Origin: Clostridia bacterium
Lineage (GTDB): Bacteria; Bacillota; Clostridia; TANB77; CAG-465
DNA: 64,000 nucleotides
Reading direction: 5' to 3'
Assembly: GCA_017626395.1 (NCBI GenBank)
Contig: JAGAIU010000015.1
Span: 3,746 to 67,745 of the forward strand
Shown: positions 29,955 through 60,704 of the stretch, piece by piece
Numbering within the stretch: position 1 is the first letter of the stretch
How the letters are laid out: the number at the start of each line of letters is the position of its first letter
The notes under the pieces: generated by a model
What the model saw: only the letters and a program-made list of their open reading frames with translations
What the model was told of the DNA's origin: nothing
Database searches by the model: none
Translations under genes and position numbers: made by a program

Positions 29955-29978
29955 AGCTTGAATTTTCAAGCTTTTTTT
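29955..29978 (+). terminator. intrinsic terminator
   Basis: AGCTTGAA-TTT-TCAAGCT followed by TTTTTTT. Confidence 0.7.
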
Positions 29979-30030
29979 ATTTTTCCATCATAGAATATTA
30001 ACTTAAATAAAAATTTAAGGAGGTATTAAT

Positions 30031-41953: not shown

Positions 41954-42145
41954 GAATTATCTCGACATCTTGAATTTATCGAGACACTTATATTATAAAT
42001 TCTAAACACTTTAAAGTCAATGAAATTTACTTAAAAACTGGCACTTTTCATCGCAAAAAACAACATAAAAATAGATACAAAATTATTTTGAATTCAAAGA
42101 TTAAAATAGTATAGTTATTTCACTCCGAAAGGAGGTGAAATCTTA

Positions 42146-42214
42146 ATGGAGACACTAGTAATTGTGTTATTTCTTATGATAGTTCTTGTAGAAGAATTAA
42201 AAAGTATGAAGTAA
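42146..42214 (+). CDS. 22-aa hydrophobic peptide (METLVIVLFLMIVLVEELKSMK), candidate type I toxin-like membrane peptide
   Basis: Strong RBS GGAGGTGA 7 nt upstream. The SD is embedded in the hairpin AUUUCACUCC-GAAA-GGAGGUGAAAU (42117-42141). A ~190-nt 5' UTR and its own terminator. Confidence 0.4.
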   Translation: METLVIVLFLMIVLVEELKSMK

Positions 42215-42346
42215 ATAAAAAAGTAGTTAGAACTGGGATTCTAACTACTTTTTTATAAAATAAATTTAATTATTTTATATACTCCTTAGTGGAAACACTA
42301 ATACTAAGTAACTATATTATAACATTTTAATGCTTTAAAGTCAATT
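42212..42346 (-). ncRNA. candidate antisense/convergent small RNA (about 95 nt) driven by a consensus promoter and ending at the shared terminator
   Basis: Minus strand. TTGACT-17-TATAAT (-10 at 42316-42321). The transcript runs to the 42222-42255 hairpin plus U-tract. It contains no ORF. Confidence 0.35.
42222..42255. terminator. bidirectional intrinsic terminator shared by convergent transcripts
   Basis: AGTAGTTAGAA-CTGGGA-TTCTAACTACT flanked by A9 upstream and T6 downstream. Confidence 0.7.
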
Positions 42347-42477
42347 AAAAGCATTGATAAATCAATGCTTTTTAATCGCAAATAAAGCTATAAAATATAG
42401 TTGTGTATATTTTATGTATGTGTATAAATTATATTCAAAAATATAACAAAAAAACTAGCTAAAAAGCTAGTTTAATT

Positions 42478-42553
42478 TGGTGCCCCTTCGGGGGCTCGAA
42501 CCCCGGACAAACTGCTTAAGAGGCAGCTGCTCTACCGACTGAGCTAAAAGGAC
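42478..42553 (-). tRNA. tRNA-Lys (anticodon CTT), CCA encoded
   Basis: The reverse complement folds as a cloverleaf: UAGCUCAGUCGGUAGAGCA D-arm, anticodon loop CUCUUAA, T-arm GGGGUUCGAGCCCC. The acceptor stem GUCCUUU/AAGGGGC contains two G-U pairs. Confidence 0.7.
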
Positions 42554-44607: not shown

Positions 44608-45354
44608 ATGAAAAATATAAGTGTATTGAATTCCTTTGATATTAAGATTATAGCTTTAATTACTATGATAATTGATCATATAGGATATTTTTTCTATTAT
44701 GCATTAAGTAGTGATGTATATAATGTATGTAGAATAATTGGAAGATTATCTATGCCATTATTTGCTTTTTTAATATATCAAGGATTTACACATACTAGTG
44801 ATTTTAAAAAATATTTAAAAAGATTAATGCTATTAGCTTTAATAACCCAGCTTATTGTTATAGGGATAGGAATATTTTCTAGTATTCTTGTGCCACAGTA
44901 TAATGTGATATTTTATAAAGAATTAAATATAGTTTTTTCTTTTTGCTTATCATTGGTATTATTAAAAGTAATAGATAAATATGTAAATATTGAAAAGAAA
45001 AGCTTTAAGAATACTATTGTATTTTCTTTAGTAATAATATCATTTGCTATTTTATATTTGATTTTGAATATAGATTATGGATTACTTGTTCCTGCTATAT
45101 TAGTTAGTATGTATATATATGACAAATATATAGGAAAGTGTAGTAGAATATTTAAGATGCTTTATGGAATAATAACTATAGCTATATTCTTATTTATATA
45201 TCATGAAAGTCTTATAAAATTTAGTATTTTAGCAATAATACCTATGATATTATATAATGGAAAAAAAGGTGATGGAAATAAATACTTTTTTTATTGTTGT
45301 TATGTTATACAATTCATAGTTCTATATTTGTTAGGAATAATAATGTATATATAA
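44608..45354 (+). CDS. TraX-family membrane protein (F-pilin acetylase-like)
   Basis: IKIIALITMIIDHIGYFF matches the start of the TraX family. Polytopic. A 4-nt gap separates it from pgi. Confidence 0.55.
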   Translation: MKNISVLNSFDIKIIALITMIIDHIGYFFYYALSSDVYNVCRIIGRLSMPLFAFLIYQGFTHTSDFKKYLKRLMLLALITQLIVIGIGIFSSILVPQYNVIFYKELNIVFSFCLSLVLLKVIDKYVNIEKKSFKNTIVFSLVIISFAILYLILNIDYGLLVPAILVSMYIYDKYIGKCSRIFKMLYGIITIAIFLFIYHESLIKFSILAIIPMILYNGKKGDGNKYFFYCCYVIQFIVLYLLGIIMYI

Positions 45355-45479
45355 TGAAACGTTTACATAAATGTTTACAAATTAAAATTATTGTGATATA
45401 ATGTCAATATCGCAGTAATTTTTTTTACGATTAAAACATAAGATTAAATATATAAAAGAACACAAGGAGGAACAAAATA

Positions 45480-46094
45480 GTGGAAAATTATATGGAGAAT
45501 AATAGTGTTATAATAGGTGGAGAAATTGTTGAAGGAATAGAGTTTAGTCATGAAATATATGACGAAAAATTTTATAAATTTTCAATATTGACTAAAAGAT
45601 TAAGCGAATATGAGGACGTATTACCTGTTATAGTTTCTGAAAGATTAATAAATTTAGATGAAATACAAGTAGGTAAAATTGTTAGAATTGAAGGTCAATT
45701 TAGATCATATAATATGCAAACAGAAACTAAAAACAAATTAGTTTTATCTATCTTTGTAAAAGAAATAGAATTTGCTGAGTCGGATGTTATGACTTTAAAT
45801 GATGCTAATTTTGTGGGATATATTTGTAAAGCACCTATTTATAGAAAGACTCCTTTAGGAAGAGAAATAGCAGATGTTTTAATTGCTGTAAATAGAACGT
45901 ATAAAAAATCAGATTACATTCCTTGTATATTATGGGGAAGAAATGCTAAATTTTGTGAAAATATAGAAGTAGGAACTCTAGTAAAAGTAAATGGAAGAAT
46001 TCAGTCTAGAGCATACGAGAAAAAACTTGAAAATGGTGAAATATTAAAAAAAGTTGCTTATGAAGTATCAGTATCAAAATTTGCGAAATCTTAA
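45480..46094 (+). CDS. SSB-like OB-fold protein (putative single-stranded DNA-binding protein)
   Basis: The C-terminal half (ILWGRNAKF...VNGRIQSRAYEKK) resembles an SSB OB-fold core. It lacks an acidic tail. Confidence 0.4.
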   Translation: MENYMENNSVIIGGEIVEGIEFSHEIYDEKFYKFSILTKRLSEYEDVLPVIVSERLINLDEIQVGKIVRIEGQFRSYNMQTETKNKLVLSIFVKEIEFAESDVMTLNDANFVGYICKAPIYRKTPLGREIADVLIAVNRTYKKSDYIPCILWGRNAKFCENIEVGTLVKVNGRIQSRAYEKKLENGEILKKVAYEVSVSKFAKS

Positions 46095-46126
46095 TAATTA
46101 CAACAGTCTAGAAATGGGCTGTTTTT

Positions 46127-46642
46127 TCATTGCAAAAATTCTAAAGGATTAATACTAATCTCACCTTTAAATATTGAAAAGTGTAAATGTGGACCAGTAG
46201 TATTTCCATTCATAATACCACTAGATAAATATTTGGGACCAACATACCCAATAACATCTCCTGTATTTACATATTGACCAGCTTCAACAATAAAATTTTC
46301 AGATAAATGACAATATAAACTTTTTAAATCATCGTTATGAGATATAATTATTGTATTACCATAACCATCTTCTAAAAATGCTGCATATTCTATATATCCA
46401 GAATTGGTAGCGAATACTTCGCTATTCATTGGTGCTAAAAAATCTATACCATTATGAAAATTAGAAGTGCCATACATTTCTCTATTTCCATAGTATGAAG
46501 AAATGGCTGTATATTCAGTAGGATATTGGAATTCTAAACTATTTGAAGTACTATTTAAATTGAGTAATATAAGCATAACATAAAGAAAAGATAATAATAA
46601 AATCATTAAATCACCCCTTGATATAATACATACTTTTAGCAA
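46127..46642 (-). CDS. M23-family peptidoglycan metalloendopeptidase
   Basis: HNGIDF...GNTIIISHND...TGPHLHFSI, a LytM/M23 signature. N-terminal signal anchor. Confidence 0.75.
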   Translation of the reverse strand: MLKVCIISRGDLMILLLSFLYVMLILLNLNSTSNSLEFQYPTEYTAISSYYGNREMYGTSNFHNGIDFLAPMNSEVFATNSGYIEYAAFLEDGYGNTIIISHNDDLKSLYCHLSENFIVEAGQYVNTGDVIGYVGPKYLSSGIMNGNTTGPHLHFSIFKGEISINPLEFLQ

Positions 46643-46794
46643 TGAAGTAAAGAAAAAATAGCTTCAAAAAAGTGGCAAAATTTGCAAAAATGTACATAAA
46701 AAAGTATGCTTAAAGCTTAAAAAGTACACAAAACTATTGATTATTGCTCCAAATTTTGGTATAATTATATTAGGAAAAAAGGAGGGAGTTTATA

Positions 46795-47142
46795 ATGAAA
46801 AAATTTATGTTAAGAGTTATGCCAATAATCATGGTTTTACTTGTTGTAGTAGCTACTCCAGTATTTGCTTTAGATTTAAATGAAACTTTTAATAATAATA
46901 ATGCTGGTGGTTCTAATACTGCTAACAGAATTATAAACAACGTTTGGGGTACTGTTTTATTAGTATTACAAATACTAGCAGTTGCTGCTATCGTATTTGC
47001 CGGTGTAAAATATATGTTCGCTGGTGCTGATGAAAAAGCTACTATTAAAAACGGTTTATTAGTTTTAGCAATAGGTGCTATATTGGTATTCGGTGCTTCT
47101 ACAGTTGTTAAATTATTAATGGATGTAGTAAGTGAAGTTTAA
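46795..47142 (+). CDS. TrbC/VirB2-like T4SS pilin candidate 1
   Basis: Signal peptide (cleavage near VFA-LD) followed by two hydrophobic helices that flank GVKYMFAGADEKA. 115 aa. Own RBS and terminator. Confidence 0.5.
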   Translation: MKKFMLRVMPIIMVLLVVVATPVFALDLNETFNNNNAGGSNTANRIINNVWGTVLLVLQILAVAAIVFAGVKYMFAGADEKATIKNGLLVLAIGAILVFGASTVVKLLMDVVSEV

Positions 47143-47160
47143 TCCGAAAAAAAATTAAAA

Positions 47161-47188
47161 AATCAGGTGTAAAAGCCTGATTTTTTTT
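47161..47188 (+). terminator. intrinsic terminator between pilin genes 1 and 2
   Basis: AATCAGG-TGTAAAAG-CCTGATT followed by TTTTTTTT. Confidence 0.7.
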
Positions 47189-47248
47189 CATATATATGAT
47201 ATAATATAATTAATATAGATATGTTCTATGGAAAGGGAGGAAAAAAGT

Positions 47249-47641
47249 ATGAAATTAAATAAAATAATTACAGCTTTAGTTTTTGTGATAGTAATTGGTA
47301 TAAGTTCTAAAATAGTATGTGCAACTGATGGATTTGATGCTAACATTCTAAACGAAATTAATGTTAATGTAAATTCAACTCCGAAATACAATGAATTGAA
47401 TAATCTTAGAAATAATGTTTTAGGAATTATTATAACAGTAATGCAAATGTTATCAGTATTTGGAATTGTTTTCTGTGGTATAAAATACATGTATGCTGGA
47501 GCGGATCAAAAAGCACAACTAAAAAAAGGTTTAGCAGGTTTAGCAATTGGATGTATTATTGTATTTAGTGGAGCAACTATATCTAAATATGTATTAGATA
47601 TATTCTCTGATTTTAATACGAATTACGTAAATACTCCATAA
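47249..47641 (+). CDS. TrbC/VirB2-like T4SS pilin candidate 2
   Basis: Signal peptide followed by helix-GIKYMYAGADQKA-helix. Start at ATG 47249 after a GGGAGG RBS. Confidence 0.5.
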   Translation: MKLNKIITALVFVIVIGISSKIVCATDGFDANILNEINVNVNSTPKYNELNNLRNNVLGIIITVMQMLSVFGIVFCGIKYMYAGADQKAQLKKGLAGLAIGCIIVFSGATISKYVLDIFSDFNTNYVNTP

Positions 47642-47750
47642 TCATTACAAAAATAATACTTGTTTGTTAAATTTTTGTTAAAGTTTTTATATGTATAGAA
47701 AAATATATAATAATAAATTATAATTTTAATATGGAAAGGTGTGAGAAAAA

Positions 47751-48365
47751 ATGAAAAAAGCAATAAAAACATTAAGAAATATAGTATGTTGCTTTATACT
47801 TTTGATGATAGTAAGTACAACTTTTTCTCCTGTATATGCTGGATTTTTTGAAGATGCGAGTAAATGGTGGGATAAAGGTGGTACAGATGCTGGAATGTCA
47901 AATGCAATGTCAAGCATTACAAGTGAGATAGGTGACTATGTAAGAATCGTTGGAACAGTAGTTATAGTTATTGCAACAATAGTACTAGGTGTAAGATATA
48001 TTTTCGCAAGTGCTGAAGGAAAGACAGCTGCAAAAGAAAATGCAATGAATTTACTGGTAGCATGTATATTATTCTTTGGATGGTCTAACATAAGTAAATT
48101 GTTGTACACTGGTACAGAGTTCGCTTTTCATGCTAATACATTTGAAAGTGCTGTAGGTACAGTATTTGCAGTATTTAAATTTTTAGCAGAAGCAATCGCT
48201 TTAGTGGGAATACTATATGTTGGTATAAAATATATTTTTGCAGGAGCAGAAGGAAAAGCAGATTTAAAAAGCAAATCATTTCCTTTCATCATTGGTATAA
48301 TTTTAACATTTGCTGCAGTTGAAGTTCTAAATATTATATCAAATATAATTACTGAAACTGTTTAA
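47751..48365 (+). CDS. tandem-duplicated TrbC/VirB2-like pilin candidate 3 (two pilin modules in one ORF)
   Basis: Two repeats of the helix-loop-helix module: GVRYIFASAEGKTA and GIKYIFAGAEGKAD. Confidence 0.45.
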   Translation: MKKAIKTLRNIVCCFILLMIVSTTFSPVYAGFFEDASKWWDKGGTDAGMSNAMSSITSEIGDYVRIVGTVVIVIATIVLGVRYIFASAEGKTAAKENAMNLLVACILFFGWSNISKLLYTGTEFAFHANTFESAVGTVFAVFKFLAEAIALVGILYVGIKYIFAGAEGKADLKSKSFPFIIGIILTFAAVEVLNIISNIITETV

Positions 48366-48388
48366 GTTTAATAGTATAGGAGGTTTAT

Positions 48389-48784
48389 ATGGGAAATTCA
48401 TATTTTGTCCCAAGAAATGTAAAAGGCGAAAGTAGAATACTATATATATTTACGATGAAGTCTTTTATATTCACATTGGCTGCGGGAGTTGTTGGTATTG
48501 GTGTTTGGTTTTTAATCTCTAGTCTATTTGCCATAGATAGTCTCGTAGCTATGTTGATTTGTGTGGCAATTTTCGCTGTTATTGGATATCTCTTGGGAGC
48601 GTTAAAAATTCCAGATTCACCGATAATGGGGATTTTTAGAAAAGCTGGTGGAGAATATTTAAGTGATATAATTCTTAGATTTATTACTTTTGGTGGAAAA
48701 AAGAAAATTTATTTGTATAATTACAACAGGGAAAAAAGTGTTACGGAAGAAATGCAAGCTGATAAAAAGGAGGCAAGAAAGTAG
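48389..48784 (+). CDS. PrgI/VirB3-like small membrane protein
   Basis: 131 aa with two central TM helices, immediately upstream of the VirB4-like ATPase region. Confidence 0.4.
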   Translation: MGNSYFVPRNVKGESRILYIFTMKSFIFTLAAGVVGIGVWFLISSLFAIDSLVAMLICVAIFAVIGYLLGALKIPDSPIMGIFRKAGGEYLSDIILRFITFGGKKKIYLYNYNREKSVTEEMQADKKEARK

Positions 48785-50167
48785 ATGGAATATATTATGA
48801 TTGGTGTAATTGTAGTAATCATGATTATATGTGTAATTATGTTTGTTTCAATTGGAAAGAAAGATAAAAAAGAGTCAACTAAAAGTAATACTCAAGCAAC
48901 AACTAACAATACAACTAGTGCTCCAAAAGATAAAGTAAAAAAAGAAGATGTTTTTAAATTTATGGAGTTTGATAGAATATCTGACAACATGATTATTCAA
49001 AATGGCGGTAAAAGATATACTATGGCAATAAAGTGTAAAGGTATAAATTACGATTTGATGTCAGAAGTCGAACAAATGGCCGTAGAGCAAGGATTTATAA
49101 CTTTTTTGAATACATTAAAATATCCAATTCAACTTTATGTACAAGCTCAAAACATAGATTTAAAACATGTTGTTAATGGATACAAAAAAAATATTGCAGG
49201 TTTAAGAGAAGAATATAATAAATATAATAAACTTTCAGAAGAAAAAAGTGGAATATTTGATATCAACAAAGATGAAGTTGAGGAAATATTAAATGAAAAA
49301 ACTAAAATAATGAATGTTTATGAATATGCTAACGATATTATATCTTATGTCGAAAAAATGAGTGTTAATAAAAATTTATTACAAAGAAATTTCTATGTTT
49401 TAGTATCATATTCTAAAGGCGATATAGTAGCTGCAGATAAATTTACTAAAGAAGAAATAAATGAAATGTGCTATACAGAATTGTTAACAAGATGTAATTC
49501 TATAATAAGTGCTCTTGCTTCTTCATCAGTAAGTGGTAGAGTATTAAACTCTAATGAATTGGCAGATTTATTATATATTGCATATAACAGAGATGATAAG
49601 AGCTTAATGGGAGTTAGAGATGCACTAGAATCTGGATTCTATAGATTATACTCTACTTCTGTAGATGCCTTCCAAAGAAAAGATGAAATGCTAAATGAAG
49701 CTATATCTGCTGAAGCTAGATTAAAAGCTATAATGAGTTTAGAAAAACTTATAGAGGAAGATAATTATCAAACAGATTCAATGCTTGAACTTGAAACAGA
49801 AGAACAAATTGCTAAAGAAGCAACAGAACTTATAAAATCAGATAATAATATTGCTCCAGATATTAAACAAAGAGCGACTGATGACATAATTGAAGAATAT
49901 AGAGAAATAAAGAAAGAATATTTACCTAAAATAGAAGAAGAAAAAGCAGAAAAGGCAAAGGAAGTTCAAGAGGAAAAAGAAATTTTAAAAGAAAAATATG
50001 AAAATAGTGATTTGCATAGATTAAATAACCATAAAAAAGAAGTTATTAATTTATATAATGAAGAAATAAAACAAGAAAAAGAAGAATTAAAAAAAGTTAT
50101 AGATGCTAATTCAGAAGGTACTTCTTATGAAGAAGAAGATTCTGGTGAAAATGACTCTATATTATAA
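48785..50167 (+). CDS. T4SS-associated membrane-anchored protein of unknown function (E/K-rich coiled-coil C-terminus)
   Basis: N-terminal TM helix. Operon position between the VirB3-like and VirB4-like genes. Confidence 0.3.
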   Translation: MEYIMIGVIVVIMIICVIMFVSIGKKDKKESTKSNTQATTNNTTSAPKDKVKKEDVFKFMEFDRISDNMIIQNGGKRYTMAIKCKGINYDLMSEVEQMAVEQGFITFLNTLKYPIQLYVQAQNIDLKHVVNGYKKNIAGLREEYNKYNKLSEEKSGIFDINKDEVEEILNEKTKIMNVYEYANDIISYVEKMSVNKNLLQRNFYVLVSYSKGDIVAADKFTKEEINEMCYTELLTRCNSIISALASSSVSGRVLNSNELADLLYIAYNRDDKSLMGVRDALESGFYRLYSTSVDAFQRKDEMLNEAISAEARLKAIMSLEKLIEEDNYQTDSMLELETEEQIAKEATELIKSDNNIAPDIKQRATDDIIEEYREIKKEYLPKIEEEKAEKAKEVQEEKEILKEKYENSDLHRLNNHKKEVINLYNEEIKQEKEELKKVIDANSEGTSYEEEDSGENDSIL

Positions 50168-50186
50168 TTAAGGAAGGAGAGAAAAA

Positions 50187-52196
50187 ATGTCTAAAAAAGT
50201 TAAAGAAAAAAAAGTTTCTAGAAAAGAACTAAGAAGAATGCAAGCTAGACTTGATGAATTAAATAAACTTGGAGAATTAGACGGTAGCGATAGTGTAGAA
50301 TATAATGGAATGAACTTAAATAAATCAACTCTACATGATCTTTTAGCTCCTTCAGGGATAGATGCAACACACTATGATTATTTAGAAATATTTTCAAAGA
50401 TATCTAGATTTGCTAGAACATTTTATGTTACAACTATTCCAAGACAAGCTACATTCCCATATTTCTTATCAGGAATATATGAATTTGGAGATGTAAACAC
50501 CTCTGTATATATTACTCCTGTGCCAGAAAGTGTTTCACAAAATGATTTAAATAAAACAATTGTAGAATTACAGTCTGAAAGATTTGTTGCACAAGATAGA
50601 GGAGATATTAACAGAGAAGCTACTTTATCTACAAAACAAGCAGAAGCAGAAGCTTTGAGAGATCAGATTGCTGCAGGATATAATAAATTATTTGAAGCAA
50701 CCATTATATGTACAGTTTTTGCATATAGCAAATTAGAATTAGATAAATTGTCTGAAATATTATCAATGGAAGCATCTAAAAATCAAATTGGATTGAAAAC
50801 TGCATGGGCTTTGCAAGAAGAAGGATTTAAATCGAATCTTCCATTAAATAATAATAGAATAACAAGAAAACATACTTTCGATAGAGGTTCAATGGCTACA
50901 GTATTCCCATTCGTTAATGCTGAAGCAGGAATGGATACTGGTATTCCTATAGGAATAAATGTTCAAACAGGATTACCGCTTCTATTCGATAACTTCAACC
51001 ACACATTAACAAACTATAACATGATTATATTTGGTAAATCAGGTTCTGGTAAATCTGTTACAATTAAAACTATAATGGCTCGTTCAGCTATATTAACAGG
51101 TGTTGAAAACTTAGTACTTGATGCTGAAGGAGAATATGTTGTAGTTGCTGAAGCACTTAGAGGAATTAACATAGATGTTAGTCCAAAGAGTGATACAATA
51201 ATAAATATCTTTGATCTTGAATCTGAATTAGTAAAAGACGAGATTACAGGTAAAGAAAGATATGAATTAAATATCGAAAATAAAGTAGAAGACGTTACAC
51301 AAGCTCTAGTAACAATGGCTAGAGGTGCTACAAAATCTACAGAAGTTACAGAGTTAACAAAACAAATAATAGCAGAAATTGTTTTAGAATGTTATAAAGC
51401 TAAAGGTATTACAAATGAAGTTGAATCATTATTTTCAGATACTGATGGCGGGTTAGGAAGAGCTAAAAAGCCGATGCCTACAATCAGTGAATGGTATGAC
51501 AGACTTGTAAGAAAAAGAGAAGAAAATGAAAATGATACATACAGATATCATTACGATTATCTAGTAAAAGTTATGAAACAATTCTGTAGAAAATATAATG
51601 GACAAATGGCTTACTTTGATGGTCAATCTACATTCGAACTATTAGAAGAATGTCCGTTTATAAATATTAACATATCGCAACTTGAAGAAAGATTTGCAAG
51701 ACCACTTGCACAACAAATATTACTTTCTTGGATTTGGGAAAAATATGTTAAGAAAAATAGTGAAGATAAATCGAAAGCAAGAAAGAAAAGAGTTCTTGTA
51801 GATGAGGCATGGATGTTATTAGCATATCCAGAAGCCGTAGATTTCTTAAATACAATGGCTAGACGTGCAAGAAAAAGAAATGTATCTCTAACAGTTGTAT
51901 CTCAAAAATTCCAAGATTTCTATGAGAATAAAGCCTGTCAGGCAGTATTAACATCTGCTGAAACAAAATTATTCTTAGCTCAAGATAAATCTGAAATTGA
52001 ATATTTAAAAGAAGTATTTAAGTTGAGTGATGGTGAAGCTCAATTCTTAATAACATGTTCTAGAGGTGAAGGATTAATAAAAATTGGATACACTTCAGCT
52101 GTTATTGCAATTAAGCCTACAGAAAGAGAATTTAAATTCGTAGAAACAAACTTAAATAAATTAAGAGAAGCAGAAAATAATAAAGGAAGGGAGTAG
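50187..52196 (+). CDS. VirB4/TrbE/CagE-family T4SS ATPase
   Basis: Walker A FGKSGSGKSVT at about residue 285 and Walker B RVLVDEAWMLL (the DEAW motif is typical of VirB4). Confidence 0.7.
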   Translation: MSKKVKEKKVSRKELRRMQARLDELNKLGELDGSDSVEYNGMNLNKSTLHDLLAPSGIDATHYDYLEIFSKISRFARTFYVTTIPRQATFPYFLSGIYEFGDVNTSVYITPVPESVSQNDLNKTIVELQSERFVAQDRGDINREATLSTKQAEAEALRDQIAAGYNKLFEATIICTVFAYSKLELDKLSEILSMEASKNQIGLKTAWALQEEGFKSNLPLNNNRITRKHTFDRGSMATVFPFVNAEAGMDTGIPIGINVQTGLPLLFDNFNHTLTNYNMIIFGKSGSGKSVTIKTIMARSAILTGVENLVLDAEGEYVVVAEALRGINIDVSPKSDTIINIFDLESELVKDEITGKERYELNIENKVEDVTQALVTMARGATKSTEVTELTKQIIAEIVLECYKAKGITNEVESLFSDTDGGLGRAKKPMPTISEWYDRLVRKREENENDTYRYHYDYLVKVMKQFCRKYNGQMAYFDGQSTFELLEECPFININISQLEERFARPLAQQILLSWIWEKYVKKNSEDKSKARKKRVLVDEAWMLLAYPEAVDFLNTMARRARKRNVSLTVVSQKFQDFYENKACQAVLTSAETKLFLAQDKSEIEYLKEVFKLSDGEAQFLITCSRGEGLIKIGYTSAVIAIKPTEREFKFVETNLNKLREAENNKGRE

Positions 52197-53675: not shown

Positions 53676-53694
53676 TGGGAAATGAGGTGAAGAA

Positions 53695-55062: not shown

Positions 55063-55079
55063 TTTAAAGAGGTGATTTA

Positions 55080-55619
55080 GTGAATAAAATTATTAATTTT
55101 TTTGAAGAAATGAGTATAAGAGATAAAATAATTACTTTAGTTGTTATCTTAATTTTATTAATAATAGTTACAACTCAATATGAAAAATATAAAGAAAATG
55201 TTAATAATATATATACCTCTAAATTAGATTATAAGTCACTTACATCAGAATCACTATTAGAAAATTATTCTGAAAATTATAGTAATAGAGATGTTTATTA
55301 TACAATTAATCAAATAATAGAAAATATGAACAATGAGTATGATAAAAAGAAAAATAATTATAAAATGTACTATGAGACTGTTGATTATAATTATAGTAAA
55401 AAAATATCAAAAAAAACTTTTTCAAATAAGCTATATAGCTTATTTGAAAAAGTAAATAATTCTGATGGTGAATATGGAATACGTATGTATTGTGAAAATA
55501 TAATTTCTAATACTTTTGTAGTACAAGTGTATGTTGATGATACTATAATAGGTTATATAGGAATAATTTTTAATACTGATAACAGTACATATTCTATTTT
55601 CTATGTTGAAACATTATAG
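55080..55619 (+). CDS. hypothetical membrane-anchored protein (GTG start)
   Basis: RBS AGAGGTGA, one TM helix. Confidence 0.3.
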   Translation: MNKIINFFEEMSIRDKIITLVVILILLIIVTTQYEKYKENVNNIYTSKLDYKSLTSESLLENYSENYSNRDVYYTINQIIENMNNEYDKKKNNYKMYYETVDYNYSKKISKKTFSNKLYSLFEKVNNSDGEYGIRMYCENIISNTFVVQVYVDDTIIGYIGIIFNTDNSTYSIFYVETL

Positions 55620-55639
55620 TATAATTTTGGAGGTAATAT

Positions 55640-56479
55640 ATGATTAAACAATTTTTAAAAGATAATGAAGAAAATGTTATATCTTTTGTTACTATATTTA
55701 TTATAATAGTTGGTGTAATAATTATTATTTCAATGTGGATATCCAATGTTTTCAGTAAAAAAGAAGAAGAACCACGTATTAATTCGTATACGAATATAAG
55801 TTATTCTGAAATTATGAAAGAGGAATACGAAAATGTTCTATATAGACTATTAAAAGTTAATAACTATGAACAATTATATGAGAAAATAGATAAAAATTAT
55901 TTATTAAAAAATAATTTAGAATCAATTGATGCTAAAAATTTTTTGATAAAAAATAATTATATAGGAAATGAAATAGAAATAATATCTTGTAATGTTATAA
56001 AATCTGATGAAATATACATATTTAGGTTTTATTATAAGAATTATTCAGCTTATAAACATGTAAATGTAGTAGAATATAAGCCAAACGAATATTATATTTC
56101 TTTTGAAGAAGAAGTAAATTCATTGTTAGATAAAAAATCTATAGTTAAAGGCGAAGAAAATGGAATAAGTTATGAGTTAGAATTATTAGATATTAAAACT
56201 GATTCAGTTAAATTTAAAATTAATATAACTAATAATAATTCTTTACCGATAAATATAGATTTTAATGATATTAATTCTTTTACTATTTTAGGTAATGAAT
56301 ATAGCATACCACTTGCTAGTGTAGTAGCACAAGATAAAAATGAAATAACTCAATATTCATCAGTAAATAAAGAATTATATTTTTTAATTTCAAATAATGA
56401 TTACGAAGTTTGTGATGGTATACAAATAAATAACATAGAAATGAACGGAGAATATTTTGATATTTTAATTGAATTATAA
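55640..56479 (+). CDS. hypothetical membrane-anchored protein
   Basis: RBS GGAGGT, one TM helix. Confidence 0.3.
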   Translation: MIKQFLKDNEENVISFVTIFIIIVGVIIIISMWISNVFSKKEEEPRINSYTNISYSEIMKEEYENVLYRLLKVNNYEQLYEKIDKNYLLKNNLESIDAKNFLIKNNYIGNEIEIISCNVIKSDEIYIFRFYYKNYSAYKHVNVVEYKPNEYYISFEEEVNSLLDKKSIVKGEENGISYELELLDIKTDSVKFKINITNNNSLPINIDFNDINSFTILGNEYSIPLASVVAQDKNEITQYSSVNKELYFLISNNDYEVCDGIQINNIEMNGEYFDILIEL

Positions 56480-56490
56480 GGAGGTAAAAT

Positions 56491-59400
56491 ATGAACGAGT
56501 ATCCAAACGAGCCAAATCAGCTTGGAAATCAAGAAAATAATCAACTCGAAAATCAACAACAAGTAAGCAAAAGTTATACTCCTTCTAATATATCTAAAGC
56601 TACTAATTTAGGAAATAATATTTATAGAGCTACAAAAAAAGCTGCAAATTTGGTTAAATCTGCTGTAAAAGTTATGGCTAAAGTTGCAGGAAATATAATG
56701 AAATTTATTATCACTAATCCCTATCTTTTAGTAGCAATCGTAATAATATTTTTTATCTTAGTAATAGTAGTTGCGATAGCAAATAATTGGAAAAATCTAT
56801 TTACTTTTGAAAATGTAGATAATAGTTCTAAATCAGTTATTGAGTCGTGGGATGAAAGTAATATGACTGAGCAGCAAGAGTTAGCTAAAAGTTCTTATGA
56901 AAAAACAGGCTCATTAATGGATTTTACTGTCAATGATTTAAATAAATTTAAGGGAGATGTCGAGAAAAAAAGTGAAGGATTAAAATTTAATCAATCTCAA
57001 TTAGAGATTTATAAAGGATTACTAAAAGAATTTGGAACTAGCAACGTTCTTAGCTCTCAAAGAATTGTAAGTCCCGATGACAAAGTGTCGCTTTATGAAC
57101 ATATGTTATCTATTTCTAAATATGATTTTAATGCTGTTAAATGGAAAAGATATGGACATGGCATAGATGGCGAAGACTCTCCTTTGAAGGAAGATTTAGA
57201 GTTAGGAGTAAGATATCCAACTGATCAAAACGAAACAGAGTATGAAACTTTTTCTAGTTTGTTAAAGCCATATTTATTGTCTTATGAAGTACCTTTATCG
57301 TTCTTTTCTGGATTGATTTCAGATTCTAATTCTACAATTGATGCTTCAACTGCTATGACATATATGATAACTAAATATGCTTTGAGCGATATTACTGTAA
57401 ATCGATATGATGTTCAAAAATATAATTTAGCAACTTATTATAGAGATTATGACTATAATGTTTATTATTCTTCATTTAATGTAACATTTACTCCACAATC
57501 TGATGGAACTTATTCTATAAGTTACTCAGGTTTAAATCAAAATCATGTTTCTACAGGCCATGTGAATACAGCTCAAAATTCTAACGGAGAGCTAGATGTT
57601 ATGTTAGAAACTGCTATACCTGATAAATCTTATGTTTCATATGATAATAGATATTATATAGCAGAAGCTAATATATTTGATTTAAAAATAAATAACACAT
57701 ATAAATATACACCTTATTCACAATCAGATGTAGATAATAGAGTGTATGCAGATTCAACTGATGTTACAGAAGAATACTATGCAGAAGATATAAATGGACA
57801 AAATAAAGTGGAATTTATAAATATGCCTTTAGGAGCTTGTTCAAATGTTAGTGATGCCTTAACTAGTATATCTTTAGCAAACCATTCAGGACATGGTGAA
57901 GGTACTACCTCAGAAAGTGGTGCTATTACGTATACTTTTTCTAGTGGAAACTATGAAGTTAGAGAGGGAAAGACATTTAATGTAAACAGAACATGGGAAG
58001 ATAAATTATCTCAAACTGAAAAAAAAGAAGAATTTTACAAGTTAAGTGATCTTATACAATATAATCAAAATTGTTCTGTTGGTACTTTTTCTGAAGAAGA
58101 TTTGAGGAGTGATGATAAGAGCTTTAATTATTATACTTTATTAGAAGAACAAGAAAGATTGAATAGAATAGATTTCTTTAATGCAAATCCTAATATTTAT
58201 TATAAATATTTATTAGATGTTCCCTATGCTAAATATGTTGGAAGACATAGAGATGCATTAGAACAATTATGTTATTATAACTTAACGGAAAATTGGCAAA
58301 ATTTAGTTGATGAGTATAAGAATTTTCCATATGCTTATGGTAAAACATATGATTTTCATAAATCAGGTTCTGGAACAACTTATGTTTCAGGTATAGCATT
58401 GTTAAAACAATATATACACACTTTTGAAGGAGACGGAAGCTATTCAGGTGGTGGAAGGTTTGATGAAAATTATAATAAAGTAAGTAATGATGCAGATGCT
58501 AAATATTATAAAGTATATAGTGCAAATGATGGTGTGCATACTGTTGGATATGGTGTAAACATGGAAGCAAATGCACCTGCCTTTTTAGAACATGGTATAG
58601 ATGTTTCTACAGTTAATTTTGGAGATTATATTGACAAAGCTATTGTAGATCAGATAGAAGATAAAATAATACAAGGTAGAATAGATACAATAAAAGGTTT
58701 AACAAATGGAATTGAACTAACAGAATATCAATTACATGCATTGGTATCGCATTCATATGTTGCAGGTAATATAAATTATTTTGTAGATGCATACACACAA
58801 TATTGGAATCAAGAAAATGATGATAAGTATGAAGAACTATATGAGAAATATAAAGATAGCCCAGAATCAGCTTCAACTATAATGAGTGAAATTGATTTCA
58901 GCAATGGAATATTTGACGCATTTTTCTCTTTCTATAATAATAGAGCTCTAAATGAAAAATATGCTGGATATGCAACAAGACAAAAATCTGAATATACATT
59001 ATTTTCAAGTGGATATTATAGTACATTAAAAAGATTTTGGACTAGTAGTGCAGGTACTCCAAATGGACTTCAATTAACAAATGGTGATACGATAGATGAT
59101 AATGCTTGTCTAGAATTAGAACTTTGGTATGAACAAAATGTATTTGGTGGAAAATTCTCTGCTGGTACAGATTTATATGGATATAAAGCTGAAAAGGCAA
59201 CAGATTCACAAAATAACGATTCTAAAAATGCTGTTAATCCTGAATATGATGCTTTAGCTACAGGATCATACTATTATCAATGTCCATGGTGGTCTAGACT
59301 TAGAGCTAATATGTATTTAAGAGATATGGGGTCAGATAAAGTTTTAACTGGTGCTACTGGTGATGGTAGAGATGCAGCTAGAAAAGCTGCTTCACAGTTA

Positions 59401-59646
59401 GGATTAGAGCTTAATACTTCTATAGATGGAATAAGACCATTCTCTATTATTTCTTTTGATAAACCAGGAAGTGGACATGGACATACTGCTTTTGTTGAAG
59501 CTGTTACTAGCGAATATATAATTCTTAGCGAGTGTTCATCAGGATGGTATTGGAATGGAATAAGTATAGTTCCAAGATCAAGATTAACAAGCACAAGCTC
59601 ATCTTATTATTTTACAAGTTCTGTTTGTTTAACAGATGCTTTATAG
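56491..59646 (+). CDS. VirB1-like bifunctional cell-wall hydrolase: membrane anchor, lysozyme-like domain and C-terminal CHAP peptidase domain
   Basis: TM helix at about aa 70-95. Central lysozyme-like region (GVHTVGYGVNMEAN...ELTEYQLHALVSHSYVAGN). C-terminal CHAP with Cys (YYQCPWWSR) and His (GHGHTAFVEAV). Confidence 0.6.
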   Translation: MNEYPNEPNQLGNQENNQLENQQQVSKSYTPSNISKATNLGNNIYRATKKAANLVKSAVKVMAKVAGNIMKFIITNPYLLVAIVIIFFILVIVVAIANNWKNLFTFENVDNSSKSVIESWDESNMTEQQELAKSSYEKTGSLMDFTVNDLNKFKGDVEKKSEGLKFNQSQLEIYKGLLKEFGTSNVLSSQRIVSPDDKVSLYEHMLSISKYDFNAVKWKRYGHGIDGEDSPLKEDLELGVRYPTDQNETEYETFSSLLKPYLLSYEVPLSFFSGLISDSNSTIDASTAMTYMITKYALSDITVNRYDVQKYNLATYYRDYDYNVYYSSFNVTFTPQSDGTYSISYSGLNQNHVSTGHVNTAQNSNGELDVMLETAIPDKSYVSYDNRYYIAEANIFDLKINNTYKYTPYSQSDVDNRVYADSTDVTEEYYAEDINGQNKVEFINMPLGACSNVSDALTSISLANHSGHGEGTTSESGAITYTFSSGNYEVREGKTFNVNRTWEDKLSQTEKKEEFYKLSDLIQYNQNCSVGTFSEEDLRSDDKSFNYYTLLEEQERLNRIDFFNANPNIYYKYLLDVPYAKYVGRHRDALEQLCYYNLTENWQNLVDEYKNFPYAYGKTYDFHKSGSGTTYVSGIALLKQYIHTFEGDGSYSGGGRFDENYNKVSNDADAKYYKVYSANDGVHTVGYGVNMEANAPAFLEHGIDVSTVNFGDYIDKAIVDQIEDKIIQGRIDTIKGLTNGIELTEYQLHALVSHSYVAGNINYFVDAYTQYWNQENDDKYEELYEKYKDSPESASTIMSEIDFSNGIFDAFFSFYNNRALNEKYAGYATRQKSEYTLFSSGYYSTLKRFWTSSAGTPNGLQLTNGDTIDDNACLELELWYEQNVFGGKFSAGTDLYGYKAEKATDSQNNDSKNAVNPEYDALATGSYYYQCPWWSRLRANMYLRDMGSDKVLTGATGDGRDAARKAASQLGLELNTSIDGIRPFSIISFDKPGSGHGHTAFVEAVTSEYIILSECSSGWYWNGISIVPRSRLTSTSSSYYFTSSVCLTDAL

Positions 59647-59655
59647 GGGGTAATT

Positions 59656-60648
59656 ATGAACGATAATAAAAGAAAAATAGTTAGTATTTTTAGTATAATT
59701 GTAGTTTTATTAATTGTAGTAATTATAATTGCTGGCATCATAATTATTTCAAACTTATTTAAAGATGATTCTTATGAAAGAGATGACACAGATAGAGAAT
59801 TAAGACAAGAAGCTATTGATTTATTTGAAGAAAAAAGTGGAAAAATTGTAACAGTATCAAGCATGGTAGATTTTAATACAGTAAAAGCATGTATTCAAAA
59901 GTTTTACTCATATTATCCTTCAATGTATGATGAAAAAGTAATAAATGGAGAATATGGTGAAAATATCAATCTTGATTATTATAAACAAAGAACTTATTAT
60001 TTCTTAAGTTCAGGATATTGTACTAGAAATGATGTGACATTAGATAATATAAATTCAAAATTGCCAGAATTAAAAGGAACTTTCTTACCAGAAATATATT
60101 CAATGTATTACATTACATATGATCAAAATGTTAAACTATATTTTGTAACTGGTATGTTAAGGGATGAAAGTAATAAAGGAATACCTTTTTCAATAAATGT
60201 ATACATGGATACTGTTAATAATTATTTTGAAATAGATTTAGATAATTTATTGCAAAAAAAATACGATGAGTTAAAAGTCGGAGAAGAAATTACAGTTTCA
60301 ATTCCTGAAAATGTATTAGGAAGAACATATAATAAATTTGGTCCAGCTGCAACAACGTATGGTGACTTTTCAAAAATGTTATTTGATAATATAGTTAATT
60401 TATTATTATACAACCCAGATAAAGCATATGAGCTGCTAAGTGAAGCTGGAAAAGCAAGATTTTCTACAGTTGAAGATTTAAGAAATTTTGTTACTACTAA
60501 TAAAAAAGAAATATTACTTTTAAGTTTTAAAATGTATGAAAATAATTATGTAGATGGGAAGTTAAACGTTAACTTATATGATAAAAATTCAGAATATATT
60601 TTTAACGTCATATTGGAAGACTTTTCTTCTTTCAAATTTTCTTTTTAA
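59656..60648 (+). CDS. hypothetical membrane-anchored protein, last gene of the cluster
   Basis: RBS GGGGGGT, N-terminal TM helix, followed by a terminator. Confidence 0.35.
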   Translation: MNDNKRKIVSIFSIIVVLLIVVIIIAGIIIISNLFKDDSYERDDTDRELRQEAIDLFEEKSGKIVTVSSMVDFNTVKACIQKFYSYYPSMYDEKVINGEYGENINLDYYKQRTYYFLSSGYCTRNDVTLDNINSKLPELKGTFLPEIYSMYYITYDQNVKLYFVTGMLRDESNKGIPFSINVYMDTVNNYFEIDLDNLLQKKYDELKVGEEITVSIPENVLGRTYNKFGPAATTYGDFSKMLFDNIVNLLLYNPDKAYELLSEAGKARFSTVEDLRNFVTTNKKEILLLSFKMYENNYVDGKLNVNLYDKNSEYIFNVILEDFSSFKFSF

Positions 60649-60673
60649 AAATATAAAATAATAACTATAATAA

Positions 60674-60704
60674 AAGAAGGATTCAGAAATGAATCCTTCT
60701 TTTC
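60674..60704 (+). terminator. intrinsic terminator ending the T4SS-like operon
   Basis: AAGAAGGATTC-AGAAAT-GAATCCTTCTT followed by TTCT. Confidence 0.65.

What the first reader, a model, noticed from the sequence alone, without database searches (positions are those of the whole stretch)
44608..60704. Chromosomal conjugative-type T4SS/pilus gene cluster lacking relaxase, integrase and coupling protein
This looks like an incomplete conjugative T4SS, or a T4SS-like apparatus retained for another role. A co-oriented, RBS-linked block follows the sequence TraX-like, SSB-like and M23 peptidase, then three VirB2/TrbC-like pilins, a VirB3/PrgI-like protein, a 460-aa unknown, a VirB4 ATPase (DEAW Walker B), a VirB6-like protein, a G/S-rich membrane protein, two small membrane proteins, a 1051-aa lysozyme+CHAP hydrolase (the VirB1 functional analogue) and a 330-aa unknown, ending at a terminator. 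Nothing in the block resembles a relaxase, integrase/recombinase, T4CP or oriT, and there are no obvious flanking direct repeats. The TraX gene sits 4 nt after pgi, suggesting read-through from a core-genome operon. Candidate roles other than transfer include adhesion pili, DNA uptake or contact-dependent delivery.
Basis: partly seen in the sequence, partly recalled or inferred. Interest (0 to 1): 0.7.

Follow-up and report, generated by a model that had tools for sequence, protein, structure and literature searches.

The report
Inherited pilus-type secretion machine in Clostridia
An uncultured group of gut Clostridia carries, as a fixed part of its chromosome, a complete-looking type IV secretion machine with several pilus-subunit genes and a separately located coupling ATPase, a set-up so far reported among single-membrane bacteria only in Patescibacteria.

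Summary
There are three VirB2/TrbC pilins (one a tandem double), PrgI/VirB3, a VirB4 ATPase and a 1051-aa CHAP hydrolase.

Three corrections:
- The M23 peptidase is on the minus strand, divergent from the pilin operon.
- The "460-aa unknown" is the VirB4 N-terminal domain encoded separately (TrsD-like; hhalign 99.5%).
- A VirD4-type coupling protein is present in the same window (25169-27667, minus strand), 17 kb upstream, between pth-rplU-rpmA and other housekeeping genes.

This is not an ICE. Both flanks are core genes: pgi upstream, and S1 then gap-pgk-tpi-eno downstream. The pgi...S1 synteny holds across the 44 closer of the 80 related species-level genomes fetched. VirB4 identity tracks pgi identity (Mantel r=0.75) and VirB4 is more conserved than pgi. 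At least 539 species-representative genomes carry a close relative. The nearest mobile relatives, on Clostridium plasmids, share only about 40% VirB4 identity.

Cytoplasmic parts are strongly conserved, while pilins and surface parts diverge fast.

Best reading: a domesticated, working, pilus-forming T4SS used for contact-dependent export. The closest analogue is the chromosomal Patescibacteria T4SS. The substrate is unknown.

The parts
25169..27667 (-). VirD4/TraG-type coupling protein (T4CP), 832 aa, with four N-terminal TM segments. It is unlinked from the T4SS block and embedded among housekeeping genes (pth, rplU, rpmA).
   Evidence: Pfam matches: T4SS-DNA_transf 44.8 bits, TraG-D_C 43.4 bits, TrwB_AAD_bind 26.5 bits. 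Walker A is GATGTGKT at residue 221 and Walker B is FLYIDE at 571. It is 64-89% identical among the 120 best database matches. It shows the same pth-rplU-rpmA neighbourhood in its own contigs and in two relatives. It is 33-35% identical to the T4CPs beside the homologous plasmid T4SS.
44608..45354 (+). TraX-family membrane protein, a neighbour whose membership in the system is doubtful.
   Evidence: Pfam TraX 88.5 bits. It starts 4 nt after pgi. It was found in only 20 of 44 close loci, at a median 36% identity, and in none of the second family.
45480..46094 (+). Two-OB-fold SSB (PRK05813 type), a neighbour whose membership in the system is doubtful.
   Evidence: Pfam SSB. NCBIfam PRK05813 290 bits against a cut-off of 171. 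A terminator-like hairpin at 46102-46123 follows it. It is absent from second-family loci.
46127..46642 (-). Membrane-anchored M23 (LytM-type) endopeptidase, transcribed divergently from the pilin operon.
   Evidence: Pfam Peptidase_M23 90.6 bits. HNGID and HLH motifs and one N-terminal TM segment. Found in the same position and orientation in 39 of 44 close loci.
46737..46765 (+). Promoter-like site (TTGATT, 17 nt spacer, TATAAT, with a TG extension) in the divergent intergenic region ahead of the first pilin gene.
   Evidence: Consensus scan only. This is not evidence of function.
46795..47142 (+). VirB2/TrbC-type pilin 1 (115 aa): a signal peptide followed by a two-helix hydrophobic hairpin. 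It is the best conserved of the pilins.
   Evidence: Pfam TrbC 34.5 bits (cut-off 27.9) and T4SS_pilin 30.5 bits (cut-off 26.6). Topology. Median 48% identity in close loci.
47157..47186 (.). Hairpin directly after pilin 1. It may act as a partial terminator or stabiliser that sets the pilin excess.
   Evidence: Terminator-like hit, scored on the minus strand by the scan. The role is inferred.
47228..47641 (+). VirB2-type pilin 2 (137 aa).
   Evidence: Pfam T4SS_pilin 29.4 bits (cut-off 26.6) and TrbC 25.5 bits. It shares the motif K-Y-M-x-A-G-A-D-x-K-A with pilins 1 and 3 (repeat family D1).
47751..48365 (+). Tandem double pilin (204 aa, two VirB2 hairpins).
   Evidence: Pfam TrbC 38.5 bits in two stretches. 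Two domains at residues 51-120 and 129-199 in the HMM census. A double pilin was found in nearly all close loci.
48389..48784 (+). VirB3 analogue (PrgI family), 131 aa, two TM segments. Its stop codon abuts the start of the next gene.
   Evidence: Pfam PrgI 35.1 bits (cut-off 27). Found in 80 of 80 related loci.
48785..50167 (+). TrsD-like protein: the VirB4 N-terminal domain encoded on its own (one TM segment, the domain at residues ~53-282, and a charged C-terminal tail).
   Evidence: NCBIfam VirB4_plasma profile positions 80-264, E=5e-5. hhalign of its family (A1) against full-length VirB4s (A2): probability 99.5%, E=2.5e-22, matching positions 18-228 of the long VirB4s. The equivalent gene in an outgroup carries Pfam TraC-like.
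50187..52196 (+). VirB4 ATPase lacking its N-terminal domain (669 aa).
   Evidence: Pfam matches. NCBIfam conju_CD1110 225 bits starting at profile position 144, and VirB4_plasma profile positions 270-877. PDB 4ag5 at E=2e-25. Walker motifs.
52197..53675 (+). Membrane protein with an embedded VirB2-like hairpin (residues 131-201) and about five TM segments. It is the N-terminal half of a VirB6-position protein.
   Evidence: hhalign of the pilin family against this family: probability 94.7%, E=5.7e-8. Pfam T4SS_pilin 17.5 bits, below cut-off. NCBIfam MMCAP2_0566 E=1.8e-4. It is fused with the next gene in L025 (841 aa) and corresponds to the 853-aa plasmid protein.
53695..55062 (+). G/S-rich membrane protein. 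It is the C-terminal half of the VirB6-position protein.
   Evidence: Two TM segments. Its N-terminus matches the interior of the single 853-aa plasmid protein that follows VirB4. It forms one ORF with the previous gene in L025.
55080..55619 (+). Bitopic membrane protein, 179 aa, fast-evolving, role unresolved.
   Evidence: One TM segment. The single-sequence model was poor (pLDDT 55) and gave no fold match.
55640..56479 (+). VirB8-like candidate: a TM anchor, an NTF2-like domain (residues 55-155) and an Ig-like beta-sandwich (residues 165-279).
56491..59646 (+). Membrane-anchored cell-wall hydrolase (VirB1 analogue), 1051 aa, with a ~550-aa unknown region, a lysozyme-like region and a CHAP domain.
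   Evidence: Pfam CHAP 30.8 bits (cut-off 26) and Phage_lysozyme 19.8 bits (below the 22.3 cut-off). One TM segment at residues 79-97. Relatives carry other hydrolase domains at this position: GDSL plus tail lysozyme in L063, C39 plus 3D in plasmids, and NlpC/P60 in an outgroup.
59656..60648 (+). Bitopic membrane protein, 330 aa, the last gene of the operon, fast-evolving, role unknown.
   Evidence: One TM segment. No family match. Recognisable in only 7 of 44 close loci.
60672..60703 (.). 14-bp-stem hairpin closing the operon.
   Evidence: Terminator-like hit.

Best explanation
This is a domesticated, vertically inherited type IV secretion system of the single-membrane (Gram-positive) kind. 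It is fixed in the chromosome of a large lineage of uncultured gut Clostridia.

**Shown**
- The operon at 46795-60648 encodes several VirB2-type pilins, a VirB3 analogue, and a VirB4 ATPase split into a membrane-anchored N-terminal domain protein (TrsD-like) and the ATPase body.
- It also encodes a polytopic membrane protein in the VirB6 position that carries a pilin-like hairpin, a VirB8-like bitopic protein and a large wall hydrolase.
- A divergent M23 peptidase lies upstream.
- The cognate VirD4-type coupling ATPase sits 17 kb away among housekeeping genes.

**Inferred mechanism**
- The hydrolases open the cell's own peptidoglycan.
- VirB3, TrsD, VirB4 and the VirB6/VirB8-like proteins form the membrane translocon.
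- VirB4 extracts pilins from the membrane to build a surface pilus or channel.
- The fast-evolving subunits and pilin-domain surface proteins of that pilus contact a variable partner surface.
- The coupling protein feeds a cytoplasmic substrate into the channel for contact-dependent export. The substrate is a protein, or DNA handled by an unrecognised processing enzyme.

The system is not part of a mobile element and serves the cell itself, much as proposed for the chromosomal T4SS of Patescibacteria.
For: **Component assignments:**

**Chromosomal and not mobile**
- The flanks are pgi on one side and S1 followed by gap-pgk-tpi-gpmI-eno on the other.
- No integrase, relaxase or att repeats were found.
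- The order pgi-TraX-SSB-M23-pilins-PrgI-TrsD-VirB4-...-S1 recurs in loci L002-L045.

**Vertical inheritance under strong constraint**
- Pairwise VirB4 identity tracks pgi identity in 24 genomes (Mantel r=0.75; 0 of 2000 permutations reached it).
- Mean VirB4 identity is 79.6% against 68.7% for pgi.
- At least 539 species-representative genomes carry a close relative.
- In a library clustered at 50% identity, only one full-length representative scored above 41% identity. The next full-length hits are at 40%.
- All ORFs and catalytic motifs are intact.

**T4CP**
- It is conserved at 64-89% identity among the 120 best matches, and lies next to pth-rplU-rpmA in the source organism's own contigs and in the two relatives looked up.
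- It is homologous to the T4CP linked to the same T4SS type on Clostridium plasmids and on an outgroup contig.

**Surface-exposed parts diverge fast**
- Median identities in close loci are pilins 37-48%, the u492 protein 34% and the hydrolase 29%, against VirB4 79%.
- Pilin gene number varies from 1 to 7 among the loci (3 or more in most); some counts are cut by contig ends.

**Published analogue:** Patescibacteria have VirB2 arrays, VirB3, TrsD, VirB4 and VirB6, a distant T4CP and no relaxase. The system is essential in S. epibionticum (PMC12102498; PMC12857230).
Against: - No expression, pilus or substrate data exist. The organism is known only from metagenomes.
- The rest of the genome could not be searched for a relaxase. 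An atypical relaxase (MOBT/Rep_trans-like or TcpM-like) elsewhere would make ordinary DNA transfer possible.
- The VirB6 assignment is weak.
- In S. epibionticum the distant T4CP was reported as not essential (PMC12102498). A conserved T4CP therefore need not work with this apparatus.
- How many genomes of the lineage lack the system was not measured.
Confidence: 0.6

Rival explanations
1. It is a chromosomal conjugation apparatus that still moves DNA. The lineage would use the inherited T4SS and T4CP to transfer chromosomal DNA between conspecific cells, with a relaxase or other DNA-processing enzyme that current profiles do not recognise or that is encoded elsewhere.
For: - The T4CP is conserved and intact.
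- The nearest relatives sit on large Clostridium plasmids. One set was described as carrying conjugation genes (PMC4824171), yet they are typed "non-mobilizable" because no known relaxase is detected. The family may therefore use an unrecognised DNA-processing enzyme.
- An SSB gene lies next to the cluster in the close family.
Against: - No relaxase-like gene was found among the ORFs tested in the 64-kb window, or in the called genes 10 kb past the downstream edge and about 2.6 kb past the upstream edge.
- Plasmid-specific accessory proteins next to the plasmid T4SS (the 535-aa protein, the HTH protein and the ParM-like protein) have no homologue in the window or in any chromosomal locus.
- The SSB is in a separate transcription unit and is absent from second-family loci.
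Confidence: 0.2
2. It is a DNA-uptake (competence) machine of the ComB type, or a purely adhesive pilus, with no export function.
For: - No relaxase lies nearby.
- Pilin genes are multiple and fast-evolving.
- A ComEA-like gene sits just upstream of the cluster in L063 and three other loci.
Against: - By established knowledge, ComB-type uptake systems work without a VirD4 coupling protein. Here the T4CP is conserved as strongly as a housekeeping gene.
- ComEA adjacency is sporadic, in 4 of 36 second-family loci and none of the close family.
- A pilus used only for adhesion would not explain retention of the T4CP.
Confidence: 0.12
3. It is an ordinary ICE, or a decaying remnant of one, whose relaxase, integrase and ends lie outside the window.
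For: The gene content resembles conjugative modules of Firmicutes. The best NCBIfam matches are the conjugal VirB4 of C. difficile CTn elements and of Mycoplasma ICEs.
Against: - Housekeeping genes flank the block directly and continue for 10 kb past the downstream window edge and about 2.6 kb past the upstream edge.
- Identical synteny holds across many species, and the genes co-diverge with pgi.
- No att repeats were found.
- GC content matches the flanks.
- All genes are intact, and VirB4 is more conserved than pgi.
Confidence: 0.04

Closest known systems
Chromosomal T4SS of Patescibacteria (CPR), e.g. Ca. Southlakia epibionticum and TM7x (PMC12102498; PMC12857230)
   Same: - Chromosomal location with no relaxase nearby.
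- Arrays of divergent VirB2-like pilins upstream of VirB3 (PrgI), TrsD and VirB4.
- A VirB6-position protein and peptidase or lysozyme genes downstream.
- A T4CP encoded far from virB4.
- Vertical inheritance within lineages.
   Different: - The host here is a bona fide Firmicute with sporulation genes (spoIIIA operon in the window), glycolysis genes and a related genome of about 1.8 Mb. It is not an ultrasmall epibiont.
- Whether its VirB4 falls inside, beside or far from the Patescibacteria clade was not tested.
- Essentiality and lifestyle are unknown.
- The published view is that VirB2 pilins in single-membrane T4SSs are unique to Patescibacteria.
Uncharacterised T4SS of large Clostridium plasmids (C. 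botulinum type E plasmid pINGR16-02E1; C. beijerinckii p1; a related outgroup contig)
   Same: - The same gene order: pilin-like small protein, PrgI-like, TrsD/TraC-like, VirB4, a large membrane protein with a pilin-like hairpin, a hydrolase and small bitopic proteins.
- A T4CP of the same family.
   Different: - These are on plasmids or mobile contigs, with an integrase and the T4CP within about 10 kb.
- VirB4 identity is only about 40% and T4CP identity 33-35%.
- They have one weak pilin-like gene rather than an array.
- The VirB6-position protein is unsplit.
MPF-FATA conjugation systems, pGO1 subclass (TrsC/TrsD/TrsE) and pCF10 (PrgI/PrgJ/PrgH/PrgK/PrgL)
   Same: - A VirB3-like PrgI.
- A separate protein homologous to the VirB4 N-terminus (TrsD).
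- A VirB4 ATPase, a multidomain wall hydrolase with CHAP, an NTF2-like bitopic protein and a VirD4-type T4CP.
   Different: - Those systems lack VirB2 pilins (PMC12102498; PMC12857230), are plasmid- or ICE-borne, and have relaxases.
- NCBIfam scores here are far below the equivalog cut-offs (225 against 325 for CD1110).
Exapted chromosomal T4SSs of Gram-negative bacteria (Rickettsiales vir homologues, Bartonella VirB with pilin paralogues, Xanthomonas killing T4SS, H. pylori ComB)
   Same: - Chromosomal location without a relaxase.
- Components sometimes scattered.
- Duplicated VirB2 genes.
- Used for effector delivery, killing or DNA uptake.
   Different: - Those are double-membrane machines with a VirB7/9/10 core complex, which is absent here.
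- They belong to an unrelated VirB4 class.

Membership tests
Type IV secretion system (VirB4-based), monoderm MPF-FATA-like | VirB4-family ATPase with Walker A and B motifs | tested here: met
   Pfam P-loop_TraG 56.5 bits, AAA_10 and DUF87. NCBIfam VirB4 families, best match CD1110 at 225 bits. PDB 4ag5 at E=2e-25. Motifs.
Type IV secretion system (VirB4-based), monoderm MPF-FATA-like | VirB3-like (PrgI/TrsC) small membrane protein next to virB4 | tested here: met
   Pfam PrgI 35.1 bits against a cut-off of 27. Present in all 80 related loci.
Type IV secretion system (VirB4-based), monoderm MPF-FATA-like | TrsD-type protein homologous to the VirB4 N-terminus (pGO1 subclass) | tested here: met
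   hhalign probability 99.5%, E=2.5e-22, to the N-terminal 18-228 positions of long VirB4s. NCBIfam VirB4_plasma profile positions 80-264. It was not compared directly with TrsD of pGO1.
Type IV secretion system (VirB4-based), monoderm MPF-FATA-like | VirB6-like polytopic membrane protein | tested here: inconclusive
   Only position after virB4, about 7 TM segments over the two halves, a weak NCBIfam match to a Mycoplasma ICE protein (E=1.8e-4), and fusion of the halves in L025 and correspondence to a single protein on the plasmids. No VirB6, TrbL or PrgH profile matched.
Type IV secretion system (VirB4-based), monoderm MPF-FATA-like | VirB8-like bitopic protein with an NTF2-like fold | tested here: inconclusive
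Type IV secretion system (VirB4-based), monoderm MPF-FATA-like | Cell-wall hydrolase (VirB1 analogue) | tested here: met
   CHAP 30.8 bits against a cut-off of 26 in the 1051-aa protein. M23 90.6 bits in the divergent gene.
Type IV secretion system (VirB4-based), monoderm MPF-FATA-like | VirD4-type coupling protein | tested here: met
   Pfam T4SS-DNA_transf, TraG-D_C and TrwB_AAD_bind, all above cut-off. It is unlinked, at 25169-27667.
Type IV secretion system (VirB4-based), monoderm MPF-FATA-like | VirB4 placed in the MPF-FATA clade by phylogeny | not tested
   No reference set of classified VirB4 sequences was available. Only best-profile hints exist.
Integrative conjugative element / conjugative plasmid | Relaxase (and oriT) linked to the T4SS or T4CP | tested here: not met
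   No relaxase family was found in the larger ORFs of the window (about 48 ORFs tested). Called genes were also checked 10 kb downstream and about 2.6 kb upstream of the window and around the T4CP in two relatives; none carried a relaxase family. Several small ORFs and the rest of the genome were not searched.
Integrative conjugative element / conjugative plasmid | Integrase or recombinase and att direct repeats at the borders | tested here: not met
   No integrase was found in the window. Only short, imperfect, chance-like repeats were found. The tRNA-Lys at 42478-42553 is separated from the block by two housekeeping genes and points away from it.
Integrative conjugative element / conjugative plasmid | Variable presence and position among related genomes | tested here: not met
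   The position between pgi and S1 is the same across the close family, and the genes co-diverge with pgi.
Patescibacteria-type chromosomal T4SS | Array of divergent VirB2-like pilin genes beside virB3-trsD-virB4 | tested here: met
   Three pilin genes (four domains) in the window pass Pfam cut-offs. Most related loci have 2-7, and a few have one or are cut by a contig end.
Patescibacteria-type chromosomal T4SS | Chromosomal, no relaxase, T4CP encoded far away | tested here: met
   The absence of a relaxase was shown only locally.
Patescibacteria-type chromosomal T4SS | VirB4 belongs to the monophyletic Patescibacteria clade | not testable with these tools
   No Patescibacteria sequences could be fetched. 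The named nearest relatives are Firmicutes: Clostridium plasmids, Heliorestis and Peptostreptococcaceae.
Patescibacteria-type chromosomal T4SS | Required for growth on a host cell | not testable with these tools
   The organism is uncultured.
ComB-type DNA-uptake T4SS | Works without a VirD4 coupling protein | tested here: not met
   A conserved T4CP of the cognate family is present.

The most novel reading that the evidence does not exclude
A major uncultured lineage of gut Clostridia depends on a vertically inherited, pilus-forming T4SS of the same design as the Patescibacteria system. In this reading, VirB2 pili on single-membrane cells are not a Patescibacteria peculiarity. The Clostridia/plasmid family is a sister or source of that system. 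The pilin-hairpin-bearing large surface proteins act as exchangeable pilus adhesins for contact with partner cells. This would point to an obligate cell-contact (epibiotic or syntrophic) lifestyle, which could explain why the lineage resists culture.
Probability: 0.2. Interest if true: 0.85.

Novelty: new variant of a known kind. Interest (0 to 1): 0.72.

Why it matters
**Current view.** Reviews state that VirB2 pilins do not occur in T4SSs of Gram-positive-type cells, with Patescibacteria as the one exception. They describe that system as unique in possibly making a conjugative-type pilus (PMC12857230).

**What this finding adds.**
- The same design is fixed in the chromosome of hundreds of species of ordinary, spore-forming gut Clostridia.
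- Its motor proteins are conserved more tightly than a glycolytic enzyme.
- Plasmid-borne cousins exist in cultivable Clostridium.

**What it opens up.**
- The origin of the Patescibacteria system becomes testable with a VirB4/TrsD phylogeny.
- Genetically tractable relatives (C. beijerinckii, C. botulinum plasmids) are available for asking whether a pilus can be built through a thick wall.
- It flags a conserved surface organelle in an abundant but uncultured group of animal-gut bacteria.

Tried and rejected
- **179-aa protein.** Single-sequence AlphaFold2 gave pLDDT 55 and no meaningful Foldseek match. The VirB8 question for that protein stays open.
- **PDB sequence searches.** Searches with the 460-aa protein, the 279-aa family profile, the T4CP and the hydrolase found nothing useful.
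- **PHROGs.** A scan of the unknown proteins found nothing.
- **ComEA link to DNA uptake.** ComEA sits next to the cluster in L063, but only 4 of 36 second-family loci share this, so it was rejected as a consistent link.
- **TraX and SSB as system parts.** Rejected as core parts because of separate transcription units, patchy conservation and absence from the second family.
- **Naming distant VirB4 relatives.** Two cluster look-ups returned almost no organism names. The relationship to Patescibacteria could not be tested.
- **GTDB order of the lineage.** I recall that CAG-465 belongs to TANB77. Two literature searches found nothing to confirm this, so the name is not used as a finding.
- **Plasmid accessory proteins.** Proteins next to the plasmid T4SS were searched against the window and all loci as possible unrecognised relaxases. 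No homologue was found.

Full report
**What is in the sequence**

The window has about 27% G+C with no compositional break at the block.

| Coordinates | Gene |
|---|---|
| 44608-45354 | TraX |
| 45480-46094 | Two-OB SSB |
| 46127-46642 | M23 peptidase |
| 46795-47142, 47228-47641, 47751-48365 | Three VirB2/TrbC-type pilins |
| 48389-48784 | PrgI/VirB3 |
| 48785-50167 | 460-aa protein |
| 50187-52196 | VirB4 |
| 52197-53675 | 492-aa membrane protein |
| 53695-55062 | G/S-rich membrane protein |
| 55080-55619, 55640-56479 | Two bitopic proteins |
| 56491-59646 | 1051-aa CHAP hydrolase |
| 59656-60648 | 330-aa bitopic protein |

- Each pilin passes a Pfam gathering score, and the third pilin has two pilin domains.
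- The block closes with a hairpin at 60672-60703.
- Walker motifs of VirB4 and the catalytic motifs of M23 are intact.

**Corrections to the description**

- M23 is on the minus strand. It is convergent with SSB and divergent from the first pilin.
- A terminator-like hairpin follows SSB, and a promoter-like site precedes pilin 1.
- The secretion operon proper is therefore 46795-60648, plus the divergent M23 gene. TraX and SSB are separate units.

**The 460-aa "unknown" is solved**

- It matches positions 80-264 of an NCBIfam full-length VirB4 model, while the 669-aa VirB4 matches positions 270-877 of the same model.
- A profile of its family aligns to the N-terminal 18-228 positions of full-length VirB4 proteins. 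The probability is 99.5% and E=2.5e-22.
- VirB4 is therefore split. This is the arrangement described for TrsD/TrsE of pGO1 and for Patescibacteria (PMC12102498).

**The protein after VirB4**

- It carries a VirB2-like hairpin (hhalign 94.7%, E=5.7e-8).
- It is fused with the following G/S-rich protein in one relative and corresponds to a single 853-aa protein on the plasmids.
- Its VirB6 identity rests on position and topology only.

**The 279-aa protein**

- It models well (pLDDT 83.5) as a membrane anchor, an NTF2-like domain and an Ig-like sandwich.
- The result is consistent with VirB8 but does not prove it.

**A coupling protein is present**

- An 832-aa VirD4/TraG-type T4CP lies at 25169-27667 on the minus strand.
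- It has intact Walker A and B motifs and four TM segments.
- It sits between a YgjV-like gene and pth-rplU-rpmA.
- It is 64-89% identical among the 120 best database matches, which lie on contigs up to 570 kb.
- It keeps the pth-rplU-rpmA neighbourhood in its own contigs and in relatives at 64-67% identity.
- It is 33-35% identical to the T4CPs beside the homologous T4SS on Clostridium plasmids, so it is the cognate type.

**Chromosomal, vertical and constrained**

- Downstream of the window come a membrane protein and then gap-pgk-tpi-gpmI-eno. Upstream come alr and cell-wall genes.
- The window also holds secA, the spoIIIA operon, trpS and obg.
- No integrase, relaxase or att-like repeats were found.
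- At least 539 species-representative genomes encode a close VirB4 relative. All named records are uncultured gut Clostridia, including Clostridium sp. CAG:465 and a complete 1.8-Mb MAG.
- In 44 loci the order pgi-...-VirB4-...-S1 recurs.
- In 24 genomes, pairwise VirB4 identity tracks pgi identity (Mantel r=0.75; 0 of 2000 permutations reached it). Mean VirB4 identity is 79.6% against 68.7% for pgi.
- In a library clustered at 50% identity, only one full-length representative scored above 41% identity, and the next full-length hits are at 40%.
- A second, more distant family (VirB4 64-69% identical) keeps the architecture. In L063, the one locus whose flanks were annotated, the flanks are a different set of housekeeping genes.

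**Pattern of divergence**

| Component | Median identity in the close family |
|---|---|
| VirB4 | 79% |
| PrgI | 57% |
| TrsD-like protein | 49% |
| Pilins | 37-48% |
| Pilin-hairpin protein | 34% |
| Hydrolase | 29% |

- Small pilin genes number from 1 to 7 per locus, three or more in most; some counts are cut by contig ends. Some loci have two to four large paralogues with the pilin hairpin.
- The hydrolase swaps catalytic domains between lineages.
- Conserved motor parts combined with fast-changing exposed parts suggest a working surface organelle that meets a variable partner, phage or host immunity. This is an inference.

**Origin**

- The nearest mobile relatives are a C. beijerinckii plasmid (41.5% VirB4 identity) and C. 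botulinum type E plasmids (40%). An outgroup contig has its T4CP and an integrase close by.
- They share the gene order.
- Their accessory genes have no homologue in the chromosomal loci.
- The simplest history is capture of such a module, loss of the mobility genes and separation of the T4CP.

**Comparison with known systems**

- The closest described system is the chromosomal T4SS of Patescibacteria. It has VirB2 arrays, VirB3, TrsD, VirB4 and VirB6, a distant T4CP, almost no relaxases, and essential genes in S. epibionticum (PMC12102498).
- A December 2025 review states that VirB2 is not found in Gram-positive T4SSs apart from that case (PMC12857230).
- I found no report of the Clostridia system in the held library.
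- Whether the two systems are related by descent was not testable here.

**Verdict**

The reading "incomplete or repurposed T4SS" is right in spirit. The claim of a missing coupling protein is wrong.
- The best explanation is a domesticated, functional, pilus-forming T4SS that exports an unknown substrate in a contact-dependent way. Overall confidence is 0.6, and about 0.9 for the part "chromosomal, vertically inherited, not an ICE".

Noticed in passing
L087:7038-9322 (another strain's contig, corresponding to the gap between window 19893-22652 secA and 22715-23590 PHP): A strain with an identical T4CP carries a small insert with a tyrosine integrase, an HTH_17 excisionase-like gene and a PemK toxin next to the PHP gene. 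The insert is absent from the window, so this site is strain-variable.
   Followed up: no
window 29367-30969: Two orphan genes (193 aa and 312 aa) lie between rpmA and the beta-CASP ribonuclease gene. The 312-aa protein matched nothing in Pfam or PHROGs, and the 193-aa protein, tested in PHROGs only, also matched nothing. They are missing from the same position in relatives L089 and L091.
   Followed up: partly
window 12786-19244: A spoIIIA sporulation operon is present (SpoIIIAA 284 bits, SpoIIIAE 157 bits). The organism is therefore probably a spore-former, unlike the ultrasmall epibionts that carry the analogous T4SS.
   Followed up: no
window 9817-10677 (-): A lone BRO-N domain protein strongly matches a phage protein family of unknown function (phrog_15286, 300 bits). 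No other phage genes were seen around it.
   Followed up: no
L006:11967-18427; L047-L053 downstream of VirB4: Some relatives have two to four consecutive large paralogues (450-1100 aa), each with the pilin-like hairpin. They look like a family of exchangeable surface proteins. The HMM was iterated, so some of these calls may be generic TM hairpins.
   Followed up: partly
L063:5635-6282: A ComEA-like gene (SLBB plus HHH_3 domains) sits just upstream of the T4SS cluster in the complete 1.8-Mb MAG and in three other loci (L067, L077, L081), but not elsewhere.
   Followed up: yes
window 41989-42349: Two copies of a 37-nt sequence (81% identical), 324 nt apart, lie in the intergenic region between the AMP-ligase gene and tRNA-Lys. 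No explanation was found.
   Followed up: no
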